A stretch of 64,000 bases of DNA from Lytechinus pictus (GCF_037042905.1 NC_087251.1:26972001-27036000), one strand, 5' to 3'; shown: positions 7,170 to 57,700, counted from the stretch's first letter. Notes: generated from the letters alone by a model not told the origin. Numbers and translations: made by a program.

Positions 7170-7612
7170 TTCTTTAATACACCCACACCCGTTTCATCAT
7201 ATAACGATAATTTTACGATTGTCTGAATGCAGGGAAGTCTCTTTACATCCACTAATGGACAGGAAGGTATTTGTTGAATTACAGCCATAAATTTGAAAGT
7301 GTGTTGGTCTAGTTCATAAAACTTGGACATAATAGTAATCGAGTATCACTAAACATCCTGTGCGAGTTTCAGGTCACATGATCAAGGTCAAAGATCATGT
7401 AAGGTCAAAGAACTTTGGCCACGTTGGGGGTATTTGTTGAATTGCCATCATATCTCTATGAGTGTATTGGTCTAGTTCATAAAACGTGGAAATAAGAGTA
7501 ACCAAGTATCACTGAACATCTTGTGCGAGTTATAGTAGTTTTCAAAATCAGCACTGCTGCTATATTGAATCGCGTGATGCAGGTGAGACGGCCAGAGGCA
7601 TTCCACTTGTTT
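7170..7612 (+). mobile_element. Fragment of interspersed repeat with AAGGTCAAAG(A/G)TCA modules and ...GCCAGAGGCATTCCACTTGTT end
   Basis: Related segments at about 38380-38570, 38990-39560, 32390-33000, 34860-34960 and 59770-59850. Confidence 0.55.
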
Positions 7613-10279
7613 ATTATGCTAGAGCGCATGTCCCATGGGCATGATCCGACCAATGCGATAATTCATTTTATACTGCCCCAAATGGGAATTTAATTGTGAC
7701 TTTTAGTTGTGCACTTAAATCTTCCTGAAACACCTTCGATATGTTGAGTAGACTTTAGTCCTACATTGTGTGTTTCAATCATATAGTGTCAACTGTGATT
7801 ACAGCTTATGATATCATATAATTAGTCCATGTAATTTTGATTGAACAGTTTGGATAACATAGAGACACACCTTTGATCAAATTAAGATACTTGTTAGATC
7901 AAAATCTAAAATTCCACTCATTTAATATATTGCGCAATCGGTTGGGAAGTTGTAGGTCTTTGAAAGCAGCATTTCAAATGCATTTATTTTCCTAAATATT
8001 ATTCCATCCCCCTCTTAAAGGGATAGGAATTGATTTTTCTCCCTCAAGGATGCTCCAACACCTGGAGGAGACATTTCAATTAGCAGGTGAATGTCATGCG
8101 CTGTTTTGATTCAAGGGTACTAGTACTAGTAAGCCCCCACACCACTGGGATTACTTATTAATCGCCCGCTGGCCTGACTTCTACTTCTGCACTTCCGAGA
8201 GGAGCATCATTACATCGTTGGATGCATATTCATAATTAGCTTTTCCTCCCTGCTTAATTTTATTCAGGCATCAAGCTAAATTCCTCCATGCGTTGCCAGC
8301 AGAGCTTCAATGCTAATATAATATAGGGCTTTTCATATTTTATGATGTTCGTGTGCACAATGATTTTCCCTTGAGAGTAAAAAAACACCCTTCTATCAGT
8401 TTTTGAAAACAAATTATAAACCCTTGCATTATGATACTTGTTAACAACAAGAATTTATAATCTACAAATATCAGATTTTAACTGTAGCTGACAGTAATTA
8501 AAATATTGAGAATGCTTGATGAAAAAGTCTTCTAATAGCTAAATAAAATTTAATTCTGCTAATGTATCCTCCCACTAAATATTCAATGAATATAGCCGTT
8601 GTTCAGGAATCCAATTTAAAGCCCCAAATACTTTGTCACCGTAAAAAACCACTTATACTCGCAATATAATAGAAAATGGTCACAAAGTAATTGATTTTTG
8701 GTCAGTCAATGCAGCTACCAGTAACACTGCTCTTTCTCATCATCCAGGCATTCTGCTTGTCATCAGCTATACACATATCAGGAATGAGCTTTATTTATTT
8801 GCAGGCAGCTCCACTGTATCAAGTGCAATGCTGTTTTTCCGCATGTAAGTAAACAGCAGTGCTCTGTGGTAAGCGTCAAATGGGGCGTGGCACTCTACTG
8901 CTCGCTGGCAGCAGCCCGAGTCCCTGCACTATCTCATACCATGTCTTTGCCCATGTCTAGTGCGTGGGTTTGTAGTGTGTTCAGATCGTGCCCTTGGGTA
9001 TTTTCATAACTCTTCAATTGACATCTTGGTGCATTTCTCCCTGTTTGGAATTGAACCCCATTGTAGCAATGGAAAGCGGACAATAGGTTTATTTGTTGGT
9101 GCATGGCCTTTGTAACCTTGATCTTTGGTGCCTAGGATATTCTTGTACATGCTATGAATGTCCATTCAATTGTATGACCCAGATACAGAAAGGTCAAGCT
9201 TGTGAATATGCTATATCTCTATGAGCTTGCTTAAAACATGGTTCTTTCTCTATATGTAGCTCCATGCTTGAATGTTATATATATATATATATATATATTT
9301 GCATGCTGTGTATGCCTTTACATGATTCCAACCAAAAAGAAGGGTCAGCATAGACTTGAACAAAAATGACAATTTTGATCTGCCTTTCATTCCACTTAAA
9401 AAAATGTATTATGATTTATGATAATTCGGAATAAAAGTTACACCACTTTAATACAATAGCACTAATGCTTCAAAATATAGAAAAAACATTGGGAGTAAAA
9501 TATTGGAAATATATACTGTAATCAATTTCATGCATACTGCATTGAATAGTATAGGCGTAGGCACATTGTGATTAATATTGAAATAGTTCTTATTTCTCCC
9601 AAACCAACAATTCAAACATTGTGGTGCATGATACCAATTTTGTAACCATAATTATGCACAATACCATTTAATGATAATTTGCATTACCTGGCAACATTTT
9701 ACACATTTTATGCAGAGGATTTTTAATGATGCGTCAACGGTAACCTCTCAAATCACTTTAGATTAGATAATTTTACTATCATTCCTCAAATGATATATTC
9801 GAGTACAGTTTATGCTTGGTCAATCTAGCAAGGCTCAATGTTAATCTACGAGCAGCCACAGTTCTGACATCAAATTTGCTCGTTATCATGGACCGTCATC
9901 TCGATCCATTAGCATATTACAGTTGAGGCCTCCAGAGAGGTTATATGGGAGATTCATTATAGGCCCATAGAGGTTATGACCTGTCAATTTGATATAGTGA
10001 TATGATGTGTAATACATACCATTCATATGTCTCATCTTCAGGATATAAGAATACTAGATACAAGTACATGGAGCATTTATTGATTTGAAGTAGTAGTCAC
10101 AGTGACTGTTTTTTTGCATATATCTACATGTTGTAAGTTTTTACATACTTAAACCAAACTCGTGAAATGATGAATGCTTACTTGCCAAAATAGTTCAGCA
10201 TATACACAGGTACCTGTGCTTGGAAAAGACCATTATACAATAGAAAATAGCATGCTCATTGTGTTGATTAGGGTGCAAT

Positions 10280-42700: not shown

Positions 42701-45700
42701 TCATGAAATATATATAGTCAGCTACTTTTCCTTCAGGGCAAAAGTAACAAAAAATTGCAATTTCCATAATAATGACTGAACCATATATTCGTCATAATGA
42801 TTTTGGGAATTTTCTTTGCGTTTTTAGCAATATGTATTAATAAAGCTCAGTGTCATATTTGGAAAATGATGTTTGGTTTCAAAAGAATAAGCGTAAAGTT
42901 GAGTCTTGAGGTCTATCTATGGTGACCTCGAAGGATGAAGGGTTATGATGTAATACCTCGGTCACATTTGCTCTATGGCGGCCGTACGACGAGTCGAAAA
43001 CGTCCGTTTTATTCATTTTTATTCTATAAACCACCTATATGCAGCTGGTACAAGATATGTTAAAACGGCTGTTTTCGACTTGCCGCATGGCCGCCGTAGA
43101 GCAAATGTGACCGAGGTAATAGTGTTGTCATGACAGAGGGGTTATACCAAATGAAAGAACGCAACATATCTTTTTTGAGCAATGATAGCCAATTTCCTTT
43201 ATATTGTAATTGATATTTTCATAACCTTCTAGCAAAAGTGTAAAGGCAGTCCAGTATGTATGTTAGTCTAAAGTCTAAGCCACCAAAGTGTTTTACTACA
43301 TTATAAAATGAATAGCCCCCCCCCCCCACTCCCTTTCCCTTTAAAGATAAGGATACTTTGATATATTAGTTGATATTTTGATAACCTCCTTTGCAAGAAT
43401 GTAAAGGCAGCCTCGGATCCATATGTTGCTCCCAGTGCCCCTGTCAAGGTGAGATTCTGAAACCCCATCAAATGAAATCGTGTTCTTATCTCCTTCCAGG
43501 CTCTTAAAATACCTAATCTTTGTGCATGGTTTTCTATGTGATATGTGTGCACTGATTAAATGATCACTCGATCTAAGAATTCATGGTAATTATGTAGTGA
43601 ATGCTCCATGAATATACAGAACTTCATCTTTTAAACTCAAACAATAATTGTCTTTGTTGTAATATTAAAAATAAAATCATAATTCTACTGTTGAGTCAGG
43701 TTTTATACTACATATTTTTCAGCTTTTGCTTCCAACATATTCATTTAATTTTTTTTAAATGAAGAATTTAATAGCATATTTCAAAGTATCTTCCACACTT
43801 CCATATTTGTCATTAAAAGGGCATATCATATTTCCACTTTTCTTCCATATATTTGAATTAATTACTCATATTTATTACTGGATCTCTTAAATGGTTTATC
43901 TTTCATATCATGTTTTACATATCAACCTAAATCTATAAATGTTATAAAGTAAAAAAAAAAAAAAAGTTCTTTAATACAGGATCCAGTCTTGAGATATATA
44001 TACCTAATGATTTATACAGATTCCTGAATGTGCTCTTGACACTTGAAAATATTTCTATCCACTTTTTTCATTCTCATTAGCTCACTCGCCATGAAAAATA
44101 TCATGCATATCTATGTTCTGTGTATATACATTATGCACTTTTCCATTTAAATATACTCGCAACACTTGACAATTTTCCATTCACTTTTTTTCATTCCAAA
44201 TTGCTAATTTGTCATTTTTTTCGTCAACCATCTCATGTATGTTCTGTGTAAATGTTTCCACCTGTAAATATATCTATTCCAATGACCTTTGCATCTGCCC
44301 CTTCCTATACATTACTGCTGTAAAAAAGGTATATGATAGCTACGCTGCCCCTCCCGTCTCCGCACAATCATCTCAAGCTACCTTTGCTGCTGCTCCAACC
44401 TCCGTCAAGCAGGTGAGAGCAAGTTGTATGGTATCTGGAGATGACAGTTTTCGGATGACCAGCAGCATGCCTTCAACAAGATTTCCTTGTCATATTCAGT
44501 CAGTTTGCGAAGTCTCCTATTATTGCCTGTGCATGGTACTCATTGGTCATAGTGATTGTGTTCTAGAATAGAGAATAAAAAATCATAGTGTATTGACATT
44601 GATGATAATATTTTAATACCCAAGAATATGCAGTATATCATAGAGGTCCATTAGTTTTTGTTTGAAGATGAAGGTAGTAATGGCCCTCTGCATATTCTTC
44701 ATGGCAAATAGGTTACAGCTTTCATCCATTCAGTTCTTGTTCTCTTTGTGGTTGTATGAATGAGTATGGAGAGGAATTTTATTTGTTTATTCAGCCAAGC
44801 TACTTCCAGTCCTATGCACAGCCATGTTTTTCTCCAAGTCTCTCGCCGTCGGGTTACTCATCAAGTTACTCCACTACCAGTTACTCAACGACTGGTTATG
44901 CCCATTCCCCAACTGGTTACGTCCATTCGCCGGCATGGGATCAGACGTCGTATGACTTCACGAGGGTAGGCTACCCCAGAGGTTTCGACCAATCAGTTGG
45001 CCTCATCGCATGAGTTTGATAGTGATCGACGTGACCCTCATGAACACTTGTGTTTCCCCCTTCCTCTTCATAACAAGACATTTTTGAGAGCACTGAAGAA
45101 ATATGTGACACCATCACATCATCCTTTCTTTCACTTAGTGGACATGAGTTTTGACAGGAGTTTCATAGAGTATTCTTCTTCCCCTGTCGAGTTTTGATGT
45201 GAATTCATGTGCATACTGATTTGTCATGCTTCGATCATTGGTCATTTCTCTTACTTTTGTCAAGTTAAGCAATTTCTTGGCTGTTATTGATTCGTTGGAT
45301 TTGATACTTTGATTTTTTTCTCTCTTTCGGTTTGCAACATTCATTTGGTATGTGAGATGCTATTGGAGCAGACTGATGTTTACATTTTTCTTCTTAATTT
45401 GAAAAGTTTTGGGAATTTTTGAAAAAGAAACTTCACTTTTATTTTGCTATCTTCAGATCTTTATTTTTGTAAATAGATTCCCATATTAAAGTATGAGTCT
45501 CATTGTGAGTCCACCATTTCCCCCCGAAAACGTATAAGATAGCAAAGGCAATGAGTAAATGATAAATTTGAGAAAAATGCAACTGAACAATGAATCACAA
45601 GTGCAGGGACGAAACAAGCATTAATCAGATAGAACTAGCAGTGAGAACCCAGGAAAACTGTATTTTTTCATTGAAGTTTGTAATTAATTGGAAAGAGACA

Positions 45701-48700: not shown

Positions 48701-51700
48701 TTGGTTTATGTAAGAGCTAGAAGCAGCCAAGAAAAGGCAGAACATCATTATCATTTAACCTTCCTGATGTTTATTTTCCCTGGTTTCACGTAGATGATGA
48801 ATACCTTGGACTTCCCTGATGAATACAATCACATTTGATGAGAAGAATTGTGTAATGGTAGTGTTGATACATGGCCTGTTGAGAGTGGTTTTGATAAAAG
48901 TAGCTTAACAATCAATTATTTTGTTCATCACTACATTACTGTTACTGAAATATTTGTTGACAAATACTGTTCATGTGTGGACTCAGTAAGACATGTTCTC
49001 TTATTTCTGAAGTGTTATTATTAGTTTATGACTTTGTCATGCATTTAATCGATTTTCATACCATTCAAAATGGAGATTCCTTTGTGCAGATTGTTCTATG
49101 AACTGAAAAGTTCATATGAGTAAAGTGACTGTTCAAGTCCCCTATACTCATTTGGAGTTCATGTTATTGTGATAAATTAAAAAAAAGTTTTGTTGTAGGA
49201 TTGAACATTTATATTAACATGTATTAGTACAAGATGTGATTTGAGGTGAATGTTTGCTGTGATTGATTGTAGCATGTCATTTAATTTCTAAACATTTTTG
49301 CATACTGATGTGTTAACTGTGGAAAATATATAAAAAAAGAATCAGTTATGGTTTTTTTTCCAAAGATTAAACTGCAATTCATATGTAACTGTAAAGTATT
49401 ATTTATCACTAAAGTACTTTTGAAGGCCCTTTAGTTGAGCATATTTAAGTCATTAAGTTTTGATCCCTTGCAAGTTCAATAATGAGAATAATTATAGAGC
49501 CTGTCTGCAGCAAATTAGGTTATTTAACATAGGCTTTATGATATATGGGGACTATTTCACATACAGTAAAGTTTGACACATGTCCTCTAAACAGGATCTG
49601 ACCAGTGTGATGATGAGTTATAAGCCTCAAACAACTGGGATTTTAAAGTCACTCTTAACTCTTTGTGAAACAGCTCCATGGATCAAGAATTCATGAAACA
49701 TATGTATAATATTAGAGAAGCAAATGTATTTTATATTCTCTGTGGTGAACCTGGAGAAACTACATCCCCCCATCATGCACATCTTATGGAGGATGCAGAA
49801 TATATTGCCTATAGTTTAGGGAAGCTAAAAGTTATTCAAATCTGCAATGTTTATAATTACTGTATGCTTTTACACAAGACCCATGGAACATTCTTATACA
49901 TATGATAAATGACCAGAATGAAGTGTTATCAATATTTGAAAAAAAAGGTCTTTGGAATTCATTTGTATGAGTTTATCTGTATTTTTCTTTCACATTCAAG
50001 TTTTGTAACATTCTCACTATGGTTCACAGTCATCGTCCCCTACATAAATATATTCAATTCAAAAGTTGACCATTGCTTACCACTACAGACAAAGTCGGTC
50101 TCTGTACAAAGTAGTGTAAGGTTTAACAATCACCATAAATACGGAGCTCTACTTGTTCTTATGTTCTATATCTCATGTCATTGGTAATATTTTACACTGT
50201 CTATTAATCATTATTTGATTTCATAATTTTATCCTTGTAGCCACTTCCAGCTCAGGATGAGGCACAGACTGCCAAATTCCGAGAGTTCTTCAAGAAGCTC
50301 ACAGGGGATGTAAGTTCTTGTACAGTTTTCTCTTGTGTTAGGTACTATTTAACCCTATCTAGATTTTTCATGATAAATCCGTAACGCAAAAAGGTTGATG
50401 CGACGTTGCATAACTATTTTCATTCAAGTCTGATGCAACATGTTATATCACTAATATCAAACTTGAAATTGAAACCATGGACTCTACGCATAAAAGGTAT
50501 AATAATAACTTTTCCATCCATTGTTAACTACCATGGTACATTGCTCAACAGCCAATCAGAATCAAGGATTCCATGCAAATCATTAGTGAATGGCAAGGGG
50601 ATTATAATATAAAGCAAATAATCTTTATTTGTAAATTTGAAGGACAAACAATTACTTTCGAGTTAAGCTGGATGTAGCTATCTTTTGGAAGCAAAGCTGA
50701 GGAAAGATTGAGTGTATATGACATTCCACAGGCAAAATGGAAGGTTATAACTTTTGTTTATAGACCGCCCCCCCCCCCCCCCCCCCCGAGTCATATTCTC
50801 AGATAAAATACACACTTTAATTTTCAGTAAATGTATTATCTTTGGAATGGAAGCTCTTCATGTGTCCAGATGGAATATGATTTGATGACGTTTATTCTGT
50901 TCTTTTGACAGGATATGGAAGTGGACGCCTGGGAACTGCAGGAGATCTTAAACGCAGCCCTCAAACGAGGTGAGTGACCATACTATACTAAACCTCTAAT
51001 AGATTTAGGGTTTCAACACAGTGCAATCATTACATTACATTCCAAGCACAGACTGCCACCAACCCAATAGATCATTGCTCCAAGTTCAAGACTTCACATG
51101 GATCTCCTATCCCCCCTTTTTATTTAGACATTTGACACTAAAGGTTGCTGGAAGCAATAGCATAAAAACATCAGTCATAAAGTTTGCTGGGAATGAACTA
51201 AATATTTCTAATTCTTGACACTTTTTTCAAAAATGGCACTGATAAAAAATTCACTGTGTCAAATGACAGTATAGTTGTAATATTGTGTAGAAATAATATG
51301 AGAAACTTTTTCTTTTTCATATATCCTGTGTAATGATTTAGCTTTTGCAATGATCTGTGGGACCCCTGAATAATCAATCTCATTAAAAGCATTCAACCAT
51401 AAAGACAGTCACACGCTGGCCTTGTTATCTCACATTAACCCTTTTCATTATGCCATTGTACCCATACTTCATTCAAATCATGAGAAAGTGAATATTCAAT
51501 TTGACCCCGGTCACATCTATTCTGGTTCATTATTGATTAGCAAAATGGAAACAGCGCAAAATGTGACAAATCAAACGTCCCTAAACATTTCCCAGACCTT
51601 GCGTTTAGTCAGTCAATGTTCCCTGGAACATGTACTAAATCCAGTGTAGCGCCCTCGATGTCAATCTGGATCAGGGTCCCGTAACACAAAAGTTCTAGCA

Positions 51701-54700
51701 ATTAATCATATGATTGATTGTACATTGTGGTCAATGCAATCAATCGCAAAGATGATGATTGCTAGGCTTTGTGATATGGGCCCTTGCATTCCCACATAGA
51801 TGACTCCTTGGCCCGTATTCTGAAGTCAGGTTTAATTCAGACCATGGTCTAACTCTGTGCTAAAATTATGGGAAGCCAAAAGTGTCAAAATTTGTATTAA
51901 GTTGTATGTTTACTGTGCTCTTTCCTGATTCATCGATGGTGAAGACAATCATCTATTTATACTTCCCACACAAATATGAATGATTTGAGAGCCAAATGAG
52001 CTGAAATATTATATCTCTACTGCTAGTGATTTATGTAACAATTGGCTATCCATACTTAAACCACAACTTTAAACCTGAGTTTAAGTTAAACCCGACTTCA
52101 GAATACGGGCCCTTGTCTCTCCGGTTTGGGCATCCTAATGGAAATGCGTGGGCTTGTTTGGTTGGTGTGGCCTCCTTCACCACAGTCACACCAACTATAT
52201 ACCCACTCAAGACCGACCAAAACTATTACATTATTCCCTATGGCATACCATTACTCAATTTGGTGTCTGTTCCGTGGGTGCGACTGCAGCATAATATGCA
52301 CATAAACCGCTACTTTTGTAATGGGTGCCATTTCTTCGTGTATCATTAACCAATGCAAGGGGGAGCGTTTGCTGTGAACGGTTGATTGGAGTGGACTAAC
52401 CACCAATACCTCTTTCTGCTCAATTGTAGGAATAAGTTGGTAGAATAGTGAATGTGGTATACTTGTAGGAACAGGAGTAAAGAGAGTGTAGTGGTTTCAT
52501 GGTACAAGAGAAGACGACAAGAACACACTTGTCTAAGTTCACACTTGTCTCCTGAAAATGACAAGAACACAATTGTTGAAACGTTGAATTTTGATGGTCC
52601 TTTTCAGGACCAACGCGTGCCCTGAAAGAATACATAGTGAAACCACTGCACTCGTCTTCTTCGTCATGGGAACCTTCAGAAGGAACAGAGTAGTTTACAT
52701 AGGATTATTTATAATTCATTTGATTTTGTTTTCAAATAATAATTGAGGTAGCAGGATATGCTAATATTCATGATTAGGATGCAAAAGCTCAATATGATTA
52801 CAATCATTGCAATCACATTATACGCACACACATAGTACCTACACATCAGTGTACAGAGATACCTGGGTGATTGATTGACATGCTCGGTTGCTATGGGTGT
52901 CATAGCTATGTTAAAAACATAGCTAATGTCCAAGTTCACACTTGTCTCCTGAAAAAATTGAAAAATTAAATGCAAATTTTAAATCCACACTTCTGATTGT
53001 TAAAGATCGGTTGTATTTGATTTTTGTACTTCTATTTGATTGCAACTGTTTGTACTATAGGTCCATGCGCGCTGTGTCATTGTAGTTATGGCAACTGAGA
53101 AGTTTCTGCTTTAGAGTACAGAAATGATGTCATCTTATTGGTTGAAGGCAGGCATGCCATTAAAATTCAGCTTTTTTAATAGGGCTTCAATATCAGCATA
53201 AGAATCATTCATACATCAATTTATACATTTTAATCAAGAAGTGAACATATATATGTTGCTTTTGTTTTGTCCATTGTATGTTAATCTACCGGTATATATA
53301 TGGGAATTTTGAACAAACTTAACAAGGAAAAGATTAGTATAATAATGATTATTGACAAATGGGCTACTAATCTGTGATTAAAGAAACACAATTTATATAG
53401 TTCTATATATTGCTTATTTATTTCTGATTAAAATGACGGAAAGAAACATATTATGGAAAAAAATTATTTCCTAACCATTTGAAATTATCTTCTATTCAGT
53501 GTGCTTGCCCTATTGATAATCATGCATTCAAGTACCTGACTTTGATGATTATATATTAATGATTTAATATGCAAGACATAATACTATTGCATTCTGAGAG
53601 CTATTAACCAACATATTCATTCTTTAATTTCTCTTTTTTACCAATTGCATGAATAATATTGCTATGTAAATTGACAGAAGGTTAGTGAGTCAACTTAATA
53701 GCGATTCTGAAACAAAGGCTTCTGTCTGATACCTGATCAATAGGCTGCAATTTCTATACCTTTCAACTTTTATTTCATTTTTAATTGACTTTCAAACCAA
53801 ATCTCACCATCCTGCTAATAAAAAGCAATTTGTCTCCAATTTTAGAGTCCAAGAGAAAGTTTTTTTGTGCCACAAGTACATGTCATGTATCTTGATGTCA
53901 AAGCAGAAAAAAATGTTTGAATATGATTCCCTCATGCGTAGAATTGTCTGATGTTGCTTCTCTCAGCTCCAAACATTCACAGGACTTTTGATTCAGCTGT
54001 GTTTGTTTAGTCTTTATAGTTTCCTTGTGTTTGAAATTGTTTTAAAAGAAAAAATGATACATAGTTAATTGCATATATACAAAATTTAGAATAGATACAA
54101 ACAATTCTAGGCATCACATTCGAGACTGTCTACTTTAATGTCAAATAATTCTTTTGCATATTATTAAATTCTTTTGATTATTTGTAATTTTGTCTGTGAT
54201 AAAATTTTGATTGAAAATAAATTTGAAATAAAATAATAATTTTCATTGAATTGATTGGATGAATATTGCAACTTCTTCATGTTGATAGTGACCATGCTTG
54301 TATTTGATATTTATTTTGGAAACATGATCTTAATATGAGATGATATTCTTTTAATATCACTTTCTGTATGCTTTATTTCTTCAGTCAAATACCTTTCATT
54401 GTTTTTCCTAATGTTATTATTAAACCAATCAGTTGAAGATGTTTTTCATATTTACATTTTAAATTCTTGGTAGGATTTTAATTTGATTTACTAAATAATT
54501 ACATTGAAATAGTTTAATATAAAGCTAAAACCTATGCAGATACATTCCGATTTTTTATGCTGCTTATAGAAGACACATTAAAATAAGGATAACAAAATAA
54601 AATGATAAATAAAGGGGAAAGATTGTAGGTAGTATTTTAGGCATTCACATTCATATTCCACTCAATCCCAATACAGTGTTGCTGTCACTTTGGCAATTTC

Positions 54701-57700
54701 TTTTAATAGTGATTTTGTTAATTTTATGTCTGTTTATGTAGTTACTTCTGTTCAATTTTTTTCGTTTACATTTTCAGTGAGCAAGTATTGCATCACTTTG
54801 CCGATTGCATTTTCGTTCTGACTTGGAATTTTCACATTTCAAAAAGTGATTCTTTCTTAATGAGAGCTCATTTCATTTTCATATTTCTTAACAAAAGGGA
54901 AAAGTGTCTATTACGTTCATATTGAAATGCATATTATTTTGTGCTGTAACAATAGAAAATACCAAAGCCTTTAGTAGATTAAGAAGACGATTGCACAATT
55001 TTAATTTGGCTATACTTTAGTCTTTATTTTACCCTAGTAGTGTTAAGTAACAGCTTCATATTAATACTGTTTGCTGATTTTTCAATTTATCTTCAATTAT
55101 TCTGGCATGGGAAATGAAAATTATGAAATTGATGCAATGCTTACTTTTTATTCAATAATTGATGACAAACTCTTCTTAATGCTTTTCTTTCATTTTCTAA
55201 CCTTCACTCACCATAAGCACATTTTCACTGTACACATTTAATCAGCTAATGTATTTTCGCATGAGCTATTTGCATTTCCTCATTAGATGTACATGCATTT
55301 TTGTTCCAATTTCTCACCCTGTTTTGCATGATCTTCGCTTGCTTGTATCTTCCACGCTTTTCTCACATTCCCTGCCTACACTATTTGCTGTAACATGTGA
55401 TGTGTTTATTGTGCTTTCAACGTCTGTTATTGCTGTCTGCATGGATCAGTGCTCAATGGTAAGCAGAATGTGTAACGGTGATAACATGATTAATTTACTT
55501 CTCTCATGAAATGCTCACAACCTCGTGACAAGCAGATCTCCGAGGGAAAGATGACGGTAATTTCTGAAAAAAATATGATTATGAGATAGAAGCAAAGAAT
55601 GAAATGAAATCAAATTGTTTTCCTTGAATATCTTATTATCTTATGTAGGTTATGTAGATTTGAATCAGTGATAGGTCAATACACCATCACATGATCATAG
55701 CTGCAAGGATCGCATTTGTTATTTTGACGTCACCACAGTGAATGTAACTGCATTCAGTGCATTGTATTGTAAACTGCGGCGTTATATTCACTAAGGTGAC
55801 ATCACTCGCTGCTTATAAGTTGTGTAATCACATAATTTATTTGATGTACTTGTCGATCGCATTAAGCGCATGCTTATTTTATTTTTCCAAATTTTTTCTA
55901 CTATGACATAGATGGATCAGACTCTGATGTTGAATCTACATAGACTATATGATATAATAACAGATATTGCCTGGTCTAACTTTTTAACAAATAACATTTC
56001 AACATTTCAGCTATGTAATCCCTTGGAAAATTCTGTAGAGGAAATGAATTGTTATATTCAAATGCTAGGTAGGCAGTACCTGTATGTTCTTGTTTCCAAA
56101 GAATATTTTTCAAAGTGAAAATATAAGTAGGATGTTGAATGTAAAATTACTAATTCTCTTTCATTTTGTGCATGCTTACTGATTTTATAACCTGTTAAGA
56201 GGTCAACTCCACCCCAGATGAATGTAGATTTTAATCAATAGAAAAAAAATCAAACGAGCAAAACCCTGAAAATTTCTTCAAAGTCGGATGTAAATAAAGA
56301 TAGTTTTGAGGCTATTTCACAAAGCAGTTATATATGTATGCACAATTCAGTGACATACAAATGAGAGTAAATGACGTCCTTCACGCAATATTTATTTTTT
56401 ATTGATAGTTTGTATTATACCAAATTTCAATGAGTTCAGATTTTACAATATGGACCAACTGGACTGAACCATAAAAGGTTAAAACAATGGTAGTTCCACA
56501 TGTTCATGGTGGAATAAAGAAAAATTTACAGGACAATTAGCTACAAATTAGAATATTTCATGTAATAAACTATAAAATAAATAGTGAGTGGGTGACATCA
56601 TCAGTCCCCACATTTGCATACCGATCAGGATGTGCATATAATTGTTTTGTGAAAATAAGCAAAGCTTAATAATGTCAAACTTTCTTATATTACATCTGAT
56701 TTTGATGAAATTTTCAGTGTTGTGATATTTAATTTTATTTTTTTTAAATTCAAATCAACTTTTTTTTGTTGGGGTGGAGTTGTCCATGACCATGCAATAA
56801 CAAAAATAGTCAACATTTTGGCAATTTTTCTTTCATGAGGAATTGATTACTTCAATTATACTCTGATTAGTAAATGTTTAAAGATAACATAACATTATTT
56901 CCCTTTCTTATACAGGATGCAAGTATTCTTACTCAGTGTTGCATGATAGATAAGCATGCTCTGTTAATTATTTCATTTTTATTGGAATATATTTATCCCT
57001 TTAGTAGTGCAAGTTTATTAGAAAAAGATTTAGGTACTTGTTATATGTGTATCAATTTATTTATGTAGGCAGCTATTGATTGTTTTATTTATTTCATTTC
57101 TATATCTATTTCTAGAGCTTCAGGGCGGTGGATTCAGCCTGGAATCTTGCAAGAGTATGGTTGCTCTTACCGATGTATCCTTTTTGGACTGTTTTTATTG
57201 AAGGAAAAATTCTCCCATTTAGTAATTTAATCTAGATTTATTGGTGATGGTGGTGATTGGTGGGGATTTTTTACCTGATTGCTAAGAAAGCATGAATGCT
57301 TGTAAGCAAGCAACCAGAGGACCGACGGCTTAAGGTCCTCTCCGAAGGACCTGGTAATGAGGATTAATGCCTTACCAAAGGGCACTAGCGCACCAAGTGG
57401 GAATCAAACCCGGGTCACCGGAATATGAATCCCCCGCTCTACCGACTGAGCTATCGCGCCTTATTGCTTAACATTCCATAAGTGTAATGTAAAAAGAAAA
57501 AAAAATAGGGTTGTATGAAAATAGTTTGAATACTATGATACAACATGTACACCATTAAAGTATTAGGGAACTTCCCCAATATCTTTACATAGATGTTTCA
57601 TTTTCTAGAAAAATAATATAATAGAATAGAAAGAATAGAAAAGAATAGAAAAGAATAGAATAGAATAGAAAAGAATATAATAGAATAGAATAGAAAAGAA

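What the first reader, a model, noticed from the sequence alone, without database searches (positions are those of the whole stretch)
55250..55560. Tandem 9-nt and 21-nt frame-preserving microexons in the calpain EF1-EF2 loop with a neural-microexon-type signature
Seen: inside the 6.1-kb phase-1 intron between the EF1 exon and the next exon lie cag|TGCTCAATG|gtaagc (55450-55458) and, 77 nt later, cag|ATCTCCGAGGGAAAGATGACG|gtaatt (55536-55556). Both are multiples of 3 and stop-free, giving ...ALKR-VLN-DLRGKDD-ELQGGGF.... The 9-nt exon follows about 250 nt of pyrimidine-rich sequence with TGC at 55412, 55431 and 55438 and TGCATG at about 55326 and 55438. Established: UGC motifs close to the 3' splice site mark microexons regulated by SRRM3/4 (eMIC domain), and UGCAUG is the Rbfox site. 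Inference: a tissue-specific (neural or muscle) combinatorial switch that tunes the loop between two EF hands. Automated annotation usually misses exons this small.
Basis: partly seen in the sequence, partly recalled or inferred. Interest (0 to 1): 0.78.

Follow-up and report, generated by a model that had tools for sequence, protein, structure and literature searches.

The report
Sea urchin calpain alternative microexons
Both tiny exons in this sea urchin calcium-activated protease gene are real and optional, a third three-base exon probably sits in the same intron, and many animals vary this same protein loop, but a nerve-specific role is not shown.

Summary
The coordinates are right. The gene is a classical calpain; 17 joined exons match RefSeq XP_063957531.1 (Lytechinus pictus) without a mismatch. 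The 21-nt exon is already in that model. The 9-nt exon is in neither of 2 L. pictus proteins retrieved, but an intronless retrocopy in this genome carries it (8/9 identical), alone, between the EF1 and EF2 exons, so it was spliced. Its probable 6-nt counterpart appears in L. variegatus isoform X2 and in 51 reads against 318 skipping reads in run X24. A missed 3-nt candidate (53678-53680) matches isoform X3. Inserts at this junction occur in 14 of 17 echinoderm groups and in molluscs, spiders and bees. 'Combinatorial' is unsupported: 0 of 8 Lytechinus proteins carry two inserts, and the 77-nt intron may force a one-of-two choice. The eMIC-type splice layout and an eMIC-coding Srrm234 are present, but no tissue data were reachable, and a heritable retrocopy implies inclusion in germline or early embryo. 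The junction lines the calpastatin-A groove of calpain-2; an effect on partner binding is inferred.

The parts
50912..50969 (+). Constitutive 58-nt exon: EF1 loop and exit helix; ends with the first base (G) of a split codon
   Evidence: 100% to P0112; RNA joints 50309>50912 and 50969>57116
53599..53677 (+). 79-nt AG-free acceptor region of the 3-nt candidate, with TGCATG at 53646 and TGC at 53660
53678..53680 (+).
   Evidence: The only one of 21 three-base candidates in this intron that gives the extra Glu of L. variegatus isoform X3; top donor score in this intron; no read seen
55285..55449 (+). 165-nt AG-free, pyrimidine-rich acceptor region of the 9-nt exon; TGC at -38, -19, -12; TGCATG at -125 and -12
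   Evidence: longest zone among the 17 constitutive exons is 96 nt
55450..55458 (+). 9-nt alternative microexon (adds VLN); in neither of the 2 L. pictus proteins retrieved
   Evidence: Retrocopy on G000:C8 holds 9 nt, 8/9 identical, between the two flanking exons; probable 6-nt ortholog in L. variegatus X2 and in 51 reads of run X24
55459..55535 (+). 77-nt intron between the two microexons; candidate branch A at 55493 (intron nt 35, followed by a pyrimidine run, then TGC at 55512) or 55517 (nt 59)
   Evidence: motif match only
55536..55556 (+). 21-nt alternative microexon (adds DLRGKDD), already annotated
   Evidence: Present in XP_063957531.1, absent in XP_054758529.1; DLRGEDD in L. variegatus X1 and X5
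57116..57174 (+). Constitutive 59-nt exon: rest of the loop and entering helix of EF2
   Evidence: 100% to P0112; RNA joint

Best explanation
The intron between the EF1 and EF2 exons of this classical calpain holds a small set of optional microexons (9 and 21 nt shown, 3 nt likely). The default mRNA skips them all. When one is used, it is most likely used alone: the 9- and 21-nt exons are only 77 nt apart and the best branch point of the second lies 35 nt from the donor of the first, too close for the two to be joined. Weak acceptors with long AG-free zones and a nearby UGC keep them skipped unless an activator helps; Srrm234-eMIC is the best candidate, but inclusion of the 9-nt exon is not confined to neurons. 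Each exon lengthens the loop at the end of EF1's exit helix by 1, 3 or 7 residues and leaves the calcium-binding loops intact. This spot lines the calcium-induced groove between EF1 and EF2 that binds a partner helix in calpain-2, so the isoforms probably differ in partner binding or localisation rather than in catalysis. Shown: the exons, their optional use, the position in the fold, the presence of the regulator gene. Inferred: mutual exclusion, the regulator, tissue pattern, effect on the protein.
For: 21-nt exon in RefSeq with a skipping partner. 9-nt exon alone in a processed retrocopy that joins all other exons precisely. The retrocopy 9-mer minus its middle 3 bases equals the 6-nt exon read in X24 (51 reads against 318 skipping) and L. 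variegatus X2. 0 of 8 Lytechinus proteins with two inserts. Branch-point candidates at intron nt 35 and 59. Acceptor scores -1.6 to 2.7 against a leave-one-out median of 5.6 for 17 constitutive exons; AG-free zones 71-165 nt against a median of 50, matching the layout in the Sci Adv 2022 paper (preprint passage). Srrm234 eMIC exon scores 31.2 bits on PF15230, cut-off 27. AlphaFold2 puts the junction in the loop between two helices; the 21-nt form has local pLDDT 62-69 against 85-87 for the skip form. Calpain-2 Arg564, listed as a calpastatin-A contact in 3BOW (PMC4057710 table passage), aligns with the residue just before the junction.
Against: No read from the window's own species label showed any inclusion: X21 and X23 had 0-2 junction reads, X1 contigs showed only skipping, and 209 joints and 75 'letters between' rows were not displayed. 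The retrocopy is one event, about 5% diverged and near the L. pictus / L. variegatus split in age, so it shows past use. The branch point at nt 59 would permit double inclusion, and an A. rubens isoform may hold two small exons. TGC at -25..-5 also occurs at 5 of 17 constitutive acceptors, and a UGC is neither universal nor strictly needed in SRRM4 targets. Insert sequences are not conserved beyond the genus. Calpastatin is not known in sea urchins (recalled), so the groove's partner is unidentified.
Confidence: 0.55

Rival explanations
1. Strictly neural eMIC microexon switch with combinatorial use: Srrm234-eMIC includes the 9- and 21-nt exons, singly or together, only in neurons.
For: eMIC-type layout at all three exons; eMIC exon in the genome; eMIC activity is described as restricted to neurons in non-vertebrate bilaterians (PMC8797185 abstract); possible double inclusion in A. 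rubens.
Against: The retrocopy with the 9-nt exon must derive from germline or early-embryo mRNA; about 14% inclusion of the 6-nt form in a bulk library of unknown tissue; 0 of 8 Lytechinus proteins with two inserts; no calpain exon in the eMIC-dependent group among the 4 calpain rows found in Table S2 of PMC8797185.
Confidence: 0.2
2. Near-neutral splicing hot spot: the loop tolerates insertions and the split codon lets any in-frame short exon through, so microexons arise and decay here without a selected function.
For: Insert length (1-10 aa; 38-45 aa in bees) and sequence differ between lineages; none in Apostichopus, Antedon, 2 hemichordates, Haliotis or Watersipora proteins seen; the 9-nt exon changed length between congeners; the longer loop is modelled with low confidence.
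Against: Optional inserts recur at this junction in all five echinoderm classes and in molluscs and spiders; the 21-nt exon keeps 6 of 7 residues between the two Lytechinus species; three exons with unusual acceptor layouts in one intron against 0.09-1.26 expected.
Confidence: 0.17
3. A non-eMIC programme (for example Rbfox repression outside one tissue, or a germline or muscle factor) controls the exons; the UGC is part of UGCAUG.
For: TGCATG 12 and 125 nt upstream of the 9-nt exon and 32 nt upstream of the 3-nt candidate; upstream sites repress in the Rbfox position rule (recalled); germline inclusion implied by the retrocopy; muscle and gonad exons in fly are largely eMIC-independent (PMC8797185 passage).
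Against: TGCATG is not enriched on the sense strand (16 against 22); no GCATG within about 330 nt downstream of the microexons; it does not explain the long AG-free zones.
Confidence: 0.08

Closest known systems
RefSeq calpain-9-like isoforms of Lytechinus (XP_063957531.1; XP_041468631.1 to XP_041468637.1)
   Same: Same gene; the 21-nt exon is annotated in both species, and 6-nt and 3-nt inserts in L. variegatus.
   Different: The 9-nt exon and the 3-nt candidate are in neither of the 2 L. pictus proteins retrieved; the models say nothing of tissue or regulation.
eMIC (SRRM3/4, Srrm234)-dependent neural microexons (PMC8797185 and its preprint: abstract, passages and Table S2 rows seen; bioRxiv 2024.09.17.613571: outline and section 10 read)
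   Same: 3-27 nt size (range recalled), frame-preserving, weak acceptor, long AG-free zone, UGC near the acceptor; regulator gene present.
   Different: Neural enrichment and eMIC dependence untested; the 9-nt exon was present in a heritable mRNA; no calpain row was eMIC-dependent among the 4 found in that paper's Table S2.
ALG-2 (PDCD6) versus ALG-2 deltaGF122 (PMC5037681, passages seen)
   Same: A penta-EF-hand protein in which a splice change of a few residues alters partner binding and calcium affinity: a precedent for the proposed effect.
   Different: It arises from an alternative donor, not a cassette exon, and lies in helix 5, not in the EF1-EF2 loop.
Insect CalpA EF1-EF2 insert and rodent lens calpain-3 Lp85 (IS3)
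   Same: Bee calpain A isoforms have an optional 38-45 aa insert at the same junction. Lp85 = Lp82 + IS3 (PMC8480384 passage).
   Different: Much longer inserts. That the Drosophila CalpA insert is 76 aa and that IS3 is a 28-aa retention of intron 18, the intron equivalent to this one, is recalled; the primary papers were not held.
alpha-Tropomyosin exons 2/3, mutually exclusive by steric interference (recalled, not read)
   Same: Short distance between the upstream donor and the downstream branch point (35 nt here if the first candidate is used).
   Different: Here both exons are usually skipped, and the branch point is not mapped.

Membership tests
Classical calpain (CysPc-C2L-PEF) | Peptidase_C2, Calpain_III and EF-hand domains in order, calpain-2-like fold | tested here: met
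   Pfam; Foldseek best TM-score 0.82 to 1KFU, E 1.5e-65 to 3BOW
Alternative microexon | 3-27 nt, canonical AG/GT, frame-preserving | tested here: met
Alternative microexon | Found in spliced mRNA, with a skipping isoform (21 nt and 9 nt) | tested here: met
   21 nt: RefSeq pair. 9 nt: retrocopy. Skipping: X1 and X24
Alternative microexon | Found in spliced mRNA (3-nt candidate) | tested here: inconclusive
   Only the L. variegatus X3 protein; no read displayed
eMIC/SRRM3-4-dependent neural microexon | Weak acceptor, long AG-free zone, UGC near the acceptor | tested here: met
   thresholds chosen after the fact; clearest for the 9-nt exon
eMIC/SRRM3-4-dependent neural microexon | Strong CUAAY-type branch point and UCUC-rich tract | tested here: inconclusive
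   No YTRAY within 200 nt of the 9-nt exon (CTCAC at -85 and -134); UCUC runs present at all three
eMIC/SRRM3-4-dependent neural microexon | eMIC-coding Srrm234 in the genome | tested here: met
   G000:C2:22732241 (cwf21) and two eMIC exons at 22749509-22749727 and 22758517 onward
eMIC/SRRM3-4-dependent neural microexon | Inclusion enriched in neural tissue, near zero elsewhere | tested here: inconclusive
   Runs carry no tissue labels; the retrocopy argues against strict restriction
eMIC/SRRM3-4-dependent neural microexon | Inclusion changes on eMIC loss or gain | not testable with these tools
   needs an experiment
Rbfox-regulated exon | Conserved (U)GCAUG near the exon and response to Rbfox | tested here: inconclusive
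   Motifs present upstream, not strand-enriched; no orthologous intron reachable
Mutually exclusive exon pair (steric type) | No double inclusion; donor-to-branch distance under about 50 nt | tested here: inconclusive
   0 of 8 proteins and the retrocopy with two inserts; branch candidates at 35 and 59 nt

The most novel reading that the evidence does not exclude
The EF1-EF2 intron of classical calpains is an old bilaterian tuning slot at the rim of the partner-binding groove, filled again and again with one-at-a-time exons of 3-30 nt (longer in insects). In sea urchins an eMIC-type microexon there is switched on in the germline or early embryo, as recorded by a retrocopy, so the Srrm234-eMIC programme would act outside neurons and give eggs or germ cells their own calpain form.
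Probability: 0.15. Interest if true: 0.7.

Novelty: new member of a known kind. Interest (0 to 1): 0.42.

Why it matters
It adds an unannotated 9-nt exon with fossil-mRNA proof, and a likely 3-nt exon, to a sea urchin calpain. It also shows that one junction of the calpain penta-EF-hand domain is varied by splicing across echinoderms, molluscs and arthropods. Invertebrate calpains lack a known small subunit and calpastatin (recalled), so how their EF-hand domain is regulated is open; natural 0-, 1-, 3- and 7-residue loop variants at the groove rim make that testable. If the 9-nt exon is eMIC-dependent yet included in germ cells, the neuron-only rule for eMIC in invertebrates has an exception.

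Tried and rejected
Run search: no RNA holder listed among the indexed rows; I laid 4 of 24 runs. X21 and X23 barely express the gene. The X1 contigs drop rare forms. Repeats in the intron crowded the tables, so absence of 3-, 9- and 21-nt rows is no evidence. PF15230 found nothing at E<=0.001 because the domain is split by an intron; it was found beside the cwf21 exon. A metagenome scan for an orthologous intron gave 0 matches, so conservation of splice sites at DNA level was not tested. RNA folding of 55380-55620 is unremarkable (z 0.52): no structure-based exclusion. No exact 6-nt VY exon exists among 150 candidates in this intron, so the idea of a separate 6-nt exon was dropped in favour of orthology with the 9-nt exon. 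An alternative acceptor or donor of the flanking exons cannot give the extra Glu in this sequence, but might in L. variegatus. A further 9-nt candidate at 56073 passes only with an AG-free zone of 30 and matches no isoform seen. Five look-ups of recalled papers were not held. No complex prediction was run: no partner is known. No tree was built, so orthology of the protostome calpains to this gene is assumed.

Full report
Observation. The motif positions are right except that the first TGCATG starts at 55325. All combinations are stop-free. Splice sites alone are weak evidence: of 425 in-frame candidates of 3-30 nt in the gene's 33.8 kb of introns, 29 had a donor score of 5 or more, and 19 did on the reverse strand (one exon end was off by 1 nt there and was corrected). 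Adding a nearby TGC and a long AG-free zone leaves exactly 53678, 55450 and 55536 in four of nine threshold settings, and 4 to 7 candidates gene-wide in the other five; P against 1000 simulated introns ran from under 0.001 to 0.063. The thresholds were chosen after seeing the candidates.

The gene. It is a classical calpain with CysPc, C2L and penta-EF-hand domains. Seventeen joined exons align to XP_063957531.1 (Lytechinus pictus, P0112) with 0 mismatches and two gaps totalling 24 residues, which are the 51-nt linker exon and the 21-nt exon. So the 21-nt exon is already annotated; an older model, XP_054758529.1, skips it. Six L. variegatus isoforms that span the junction show DLRGEDD (2), VY (1), one extra Glu (1) and skipping (2). 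None of these 8 Lytechinus proteins has two inserts.

The 9-nt exon is real. A search of the window's own genome found an intronless copy of the gene on contig C8, with two partial tandem duplicates at a 2889-nt period, so one retrotransposition event. It joins the 5' UTR exon and all constitutive exons precisely, lacks the 51-, 84-, 21- and 3-nt exons, and has exactly 9 nt between the EF1 and EF2 exons: TGTTCAATG, 8 of 9 identical to the window. It differs from the window at 54 of 1092 bases, has stops and a frameshift, and over 364 residues sides with L. variegatus at 11 sites and with the window at 6, so it dates from near the split of the two species. In run X24 (organism B, raw RNA reads) 51 reads carry five extra letters plus the acceptor's G at this joint, that is a 6-nt exon giving VY, against 318 skipping reads, about 14% of these two classes. 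That 6-mer is the retrocopy's 9-mer without its middle three bases, and no separate 6-nt VY candidate exists in the window's intron; I infer that the two are orthologs. Against this: no inclusion was seen in organism A. X21 and X23 had 0-2 junction reads, X1 contigs showed only skipping, and 209 joints and 75 insert rows were not displayed. I laid 4 of the 24 runs listed.

A third exon. At 53678-53680, cag/AAG/gttagt would add one Glu. It is the only one of 21 three-base candidates in the intron that reproduces L. variegatus isoform X3, it has the best donor score in the intron, TGC at -18, TGCATG at -32 and a 79-nt AG-free zone. No read confirms it, its AG ending helps its donor score, and X3 could stem from an alternative acceptor in that species; I put it at about 0.65.

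Conservation of the site. Among proteins from three cluster look-ups and two searches, inserts at this junction occur in 14 of 17 echinoderm groups, covering all five classes (12-21 nt in urchins, 15 in Amphiura, 12-30 in starfish, 12 in Anneissia, 15 in one Holothuria model), and in 0 of 2 hemichordates. They also occur in Mytilus (7 of 17 proteins matched), Ruditapes (3 of 4), a cephalopod cluster (2 of 6), an unnamed cluster (3 of 6), Parasteatoda (6 of 14), a Stegodyphus cluster (5 of 9), one Capitella model, and as 38-45 residues in bees. None was seen in Apostichopus (4), Antedon (2), Haliotis (10), Watersipora (4), Dreissena (2) or three unnamed clusters (2, 6 and 14 proteins). Proteins that my pattern did not match, including all 9 Macrostomum rows, were left out. 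All 23 distinct inserts that I listed begin with V, A, D, E or G, as a phase-1 cassette after a G requires, against 24 of 74 other insert residues; they are related, so this is not 23 independent tests. Insert sequences are not conserved between genera, no intron DNA of other species was reachable, and I built no tree.

Regulation. eMIC targets are described as having very weak acceptors, long AG-free zones, UGC near the acceptor, UC-rich tracts and strong branch points (preprint of PMC8797185, passages). The three exons have acceptor scores of 2.7, -0.9 and -1.6 against a median of 5.6 for constitutive exons, and AG-free zones of 79, 165 and 71 nt against a median of 50. A consensus branch point is missing near the 9-nt exon, and TGC lies near 5 of 17 constitutive acceptors too. 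The genome has Srrm234 with an eMIC split over two exons. That makes eMIC control plausible but not shown. eMIC activity is described as neuron-restricted in non-vertebrate bilaterians (abstract), whereas a heritable retrocopy must come from germline or early-embryo mRNA (established knowledge). One copy could have caught a rare leak, but that is unlikely if inclusion outside neurons is near zero. Table S2 of PMC8797185 has 4 calpain rows (fly CalpA; mouse Capn3, Capn7, Capn15), none eMIC-dependent. TGCATG occurs 16 times on the sense strand of the introns and 22 times on the other, so the Rbfox motifs are suggestive at most.

One at a time. In the 77-nt intron the candidate branch point that is followed by a pyrimidine run and then TGC has its A at nt 35; a second candidate lies at nt 59. 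About 50 nt are needed between donor and branch point (alpha-tropomyosin; recalled). With no double inclusion in 8 proteins and the retrocopy, mutual exclusion is more likely than the combinatorial switch. An A. rubens pair (ECES and ECESGEKNLT) may be double inclusion or a longer donor form. No unusual RNA structure was found.

Protein effect. AlphaFold2 models place the junction a few residues after EF1's exit helix. The skip form has an 11-residue loop with pLDDT 85-87; the 21-nt form has a longer, less confident segment (62-69) with both flanking helices intact. By alignment the residue before the junction corresponds to Arg564 of rat calpain-2, listed with Ile556 and Val560 among contacts of calpastatin subdomain A, which binds the calcium-induced pocket between EF1 and EF2 (PMC4057710, passages). 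In ALG-2 a two-residue splice difference changes partner choice and calcium affinity (PMC5037681, passages). I infer that the microexons tune what docks in this groove; the urchin partner is unknown.

Verdict. The exons are real and optional: one already annotated, one newly supported, one likely. They belong to a known class. What is new is the retrocopy proof, the 3-nt candidate and the recognition of a splice-variable site shared across bilaterian calpains, for which ten searches of the held library listed no paper; subscription papers, VastDB and bioRxiv supplements could hold it. The scan's earlier notes had nothing on this site.

Noticed in passing
G000:C8:8302995-8318543 (L021:3995 to L022:9543): Processed retro-pseudogene of this calpain, full length from the 5' UTR exon, with two partial tandem duplicates; its EF4 exon is interrupted by an element flanked by direct repeats of about 990 nt (observed only).
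   Followed up: yes
window 43398-43448: Optional 51-nt exon in the C2L-PEF linker ([17 protein letters not shown]), present in 4 of 6 L. variegatus PEF-bearing isoforms and in the L. pictus model, absent from the retrocopy.
   Followed up: partly
window 44329-44412, read-through to a stop at about 44571: 84-nt linker exon with an AG-free zone of 250 nt and TGC at -13, -33 and -39. A cassette in S. purpuratus P0121; read through as a terminal exon in L. variegatus X7 (587 aa), giving a calpain without the penta-EF-hand domain; AATAAA-type signal at 44574.
   Followed up: partly
window 44795-45013: Candidate alternative last exon in phase 0 with a Ser/Tyr/Gly/Pro-rich 72-residue tail; it would also remove the EF-hand domain. 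In no protein seen.
   Followed up: no
L023:6733-6793 and 7606-7834; window 27659: The 5' UTR exon and ATG exon lie just upstream of the window, so the next intron is about 30 kb. RefSeq P0112 lacks this N-terminus, which the retrocopy and L. variegatus have.
   Followed up: partly
G000:C2:22732241-22758700: Srrm234 with cwf21 exon and an eMIC domain split over two exons about 8.8 kb apart; a whole-genome PF15230 search at E<=0.001 misses it.
   Followed up: partly
window 51810-52110, 56200-56790, 57300-57450: High-copy repeats in these introns: an inverted-repeat element, a repeat that drew many reads, and a stretch that looks like a tRNA-derived SINE (label recalled).
   Followed up: no
window 41220 and 46698: Two 18-nt candidates in other introns pass the looser microexon filter; no isoform supports them.
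   Followed up: no
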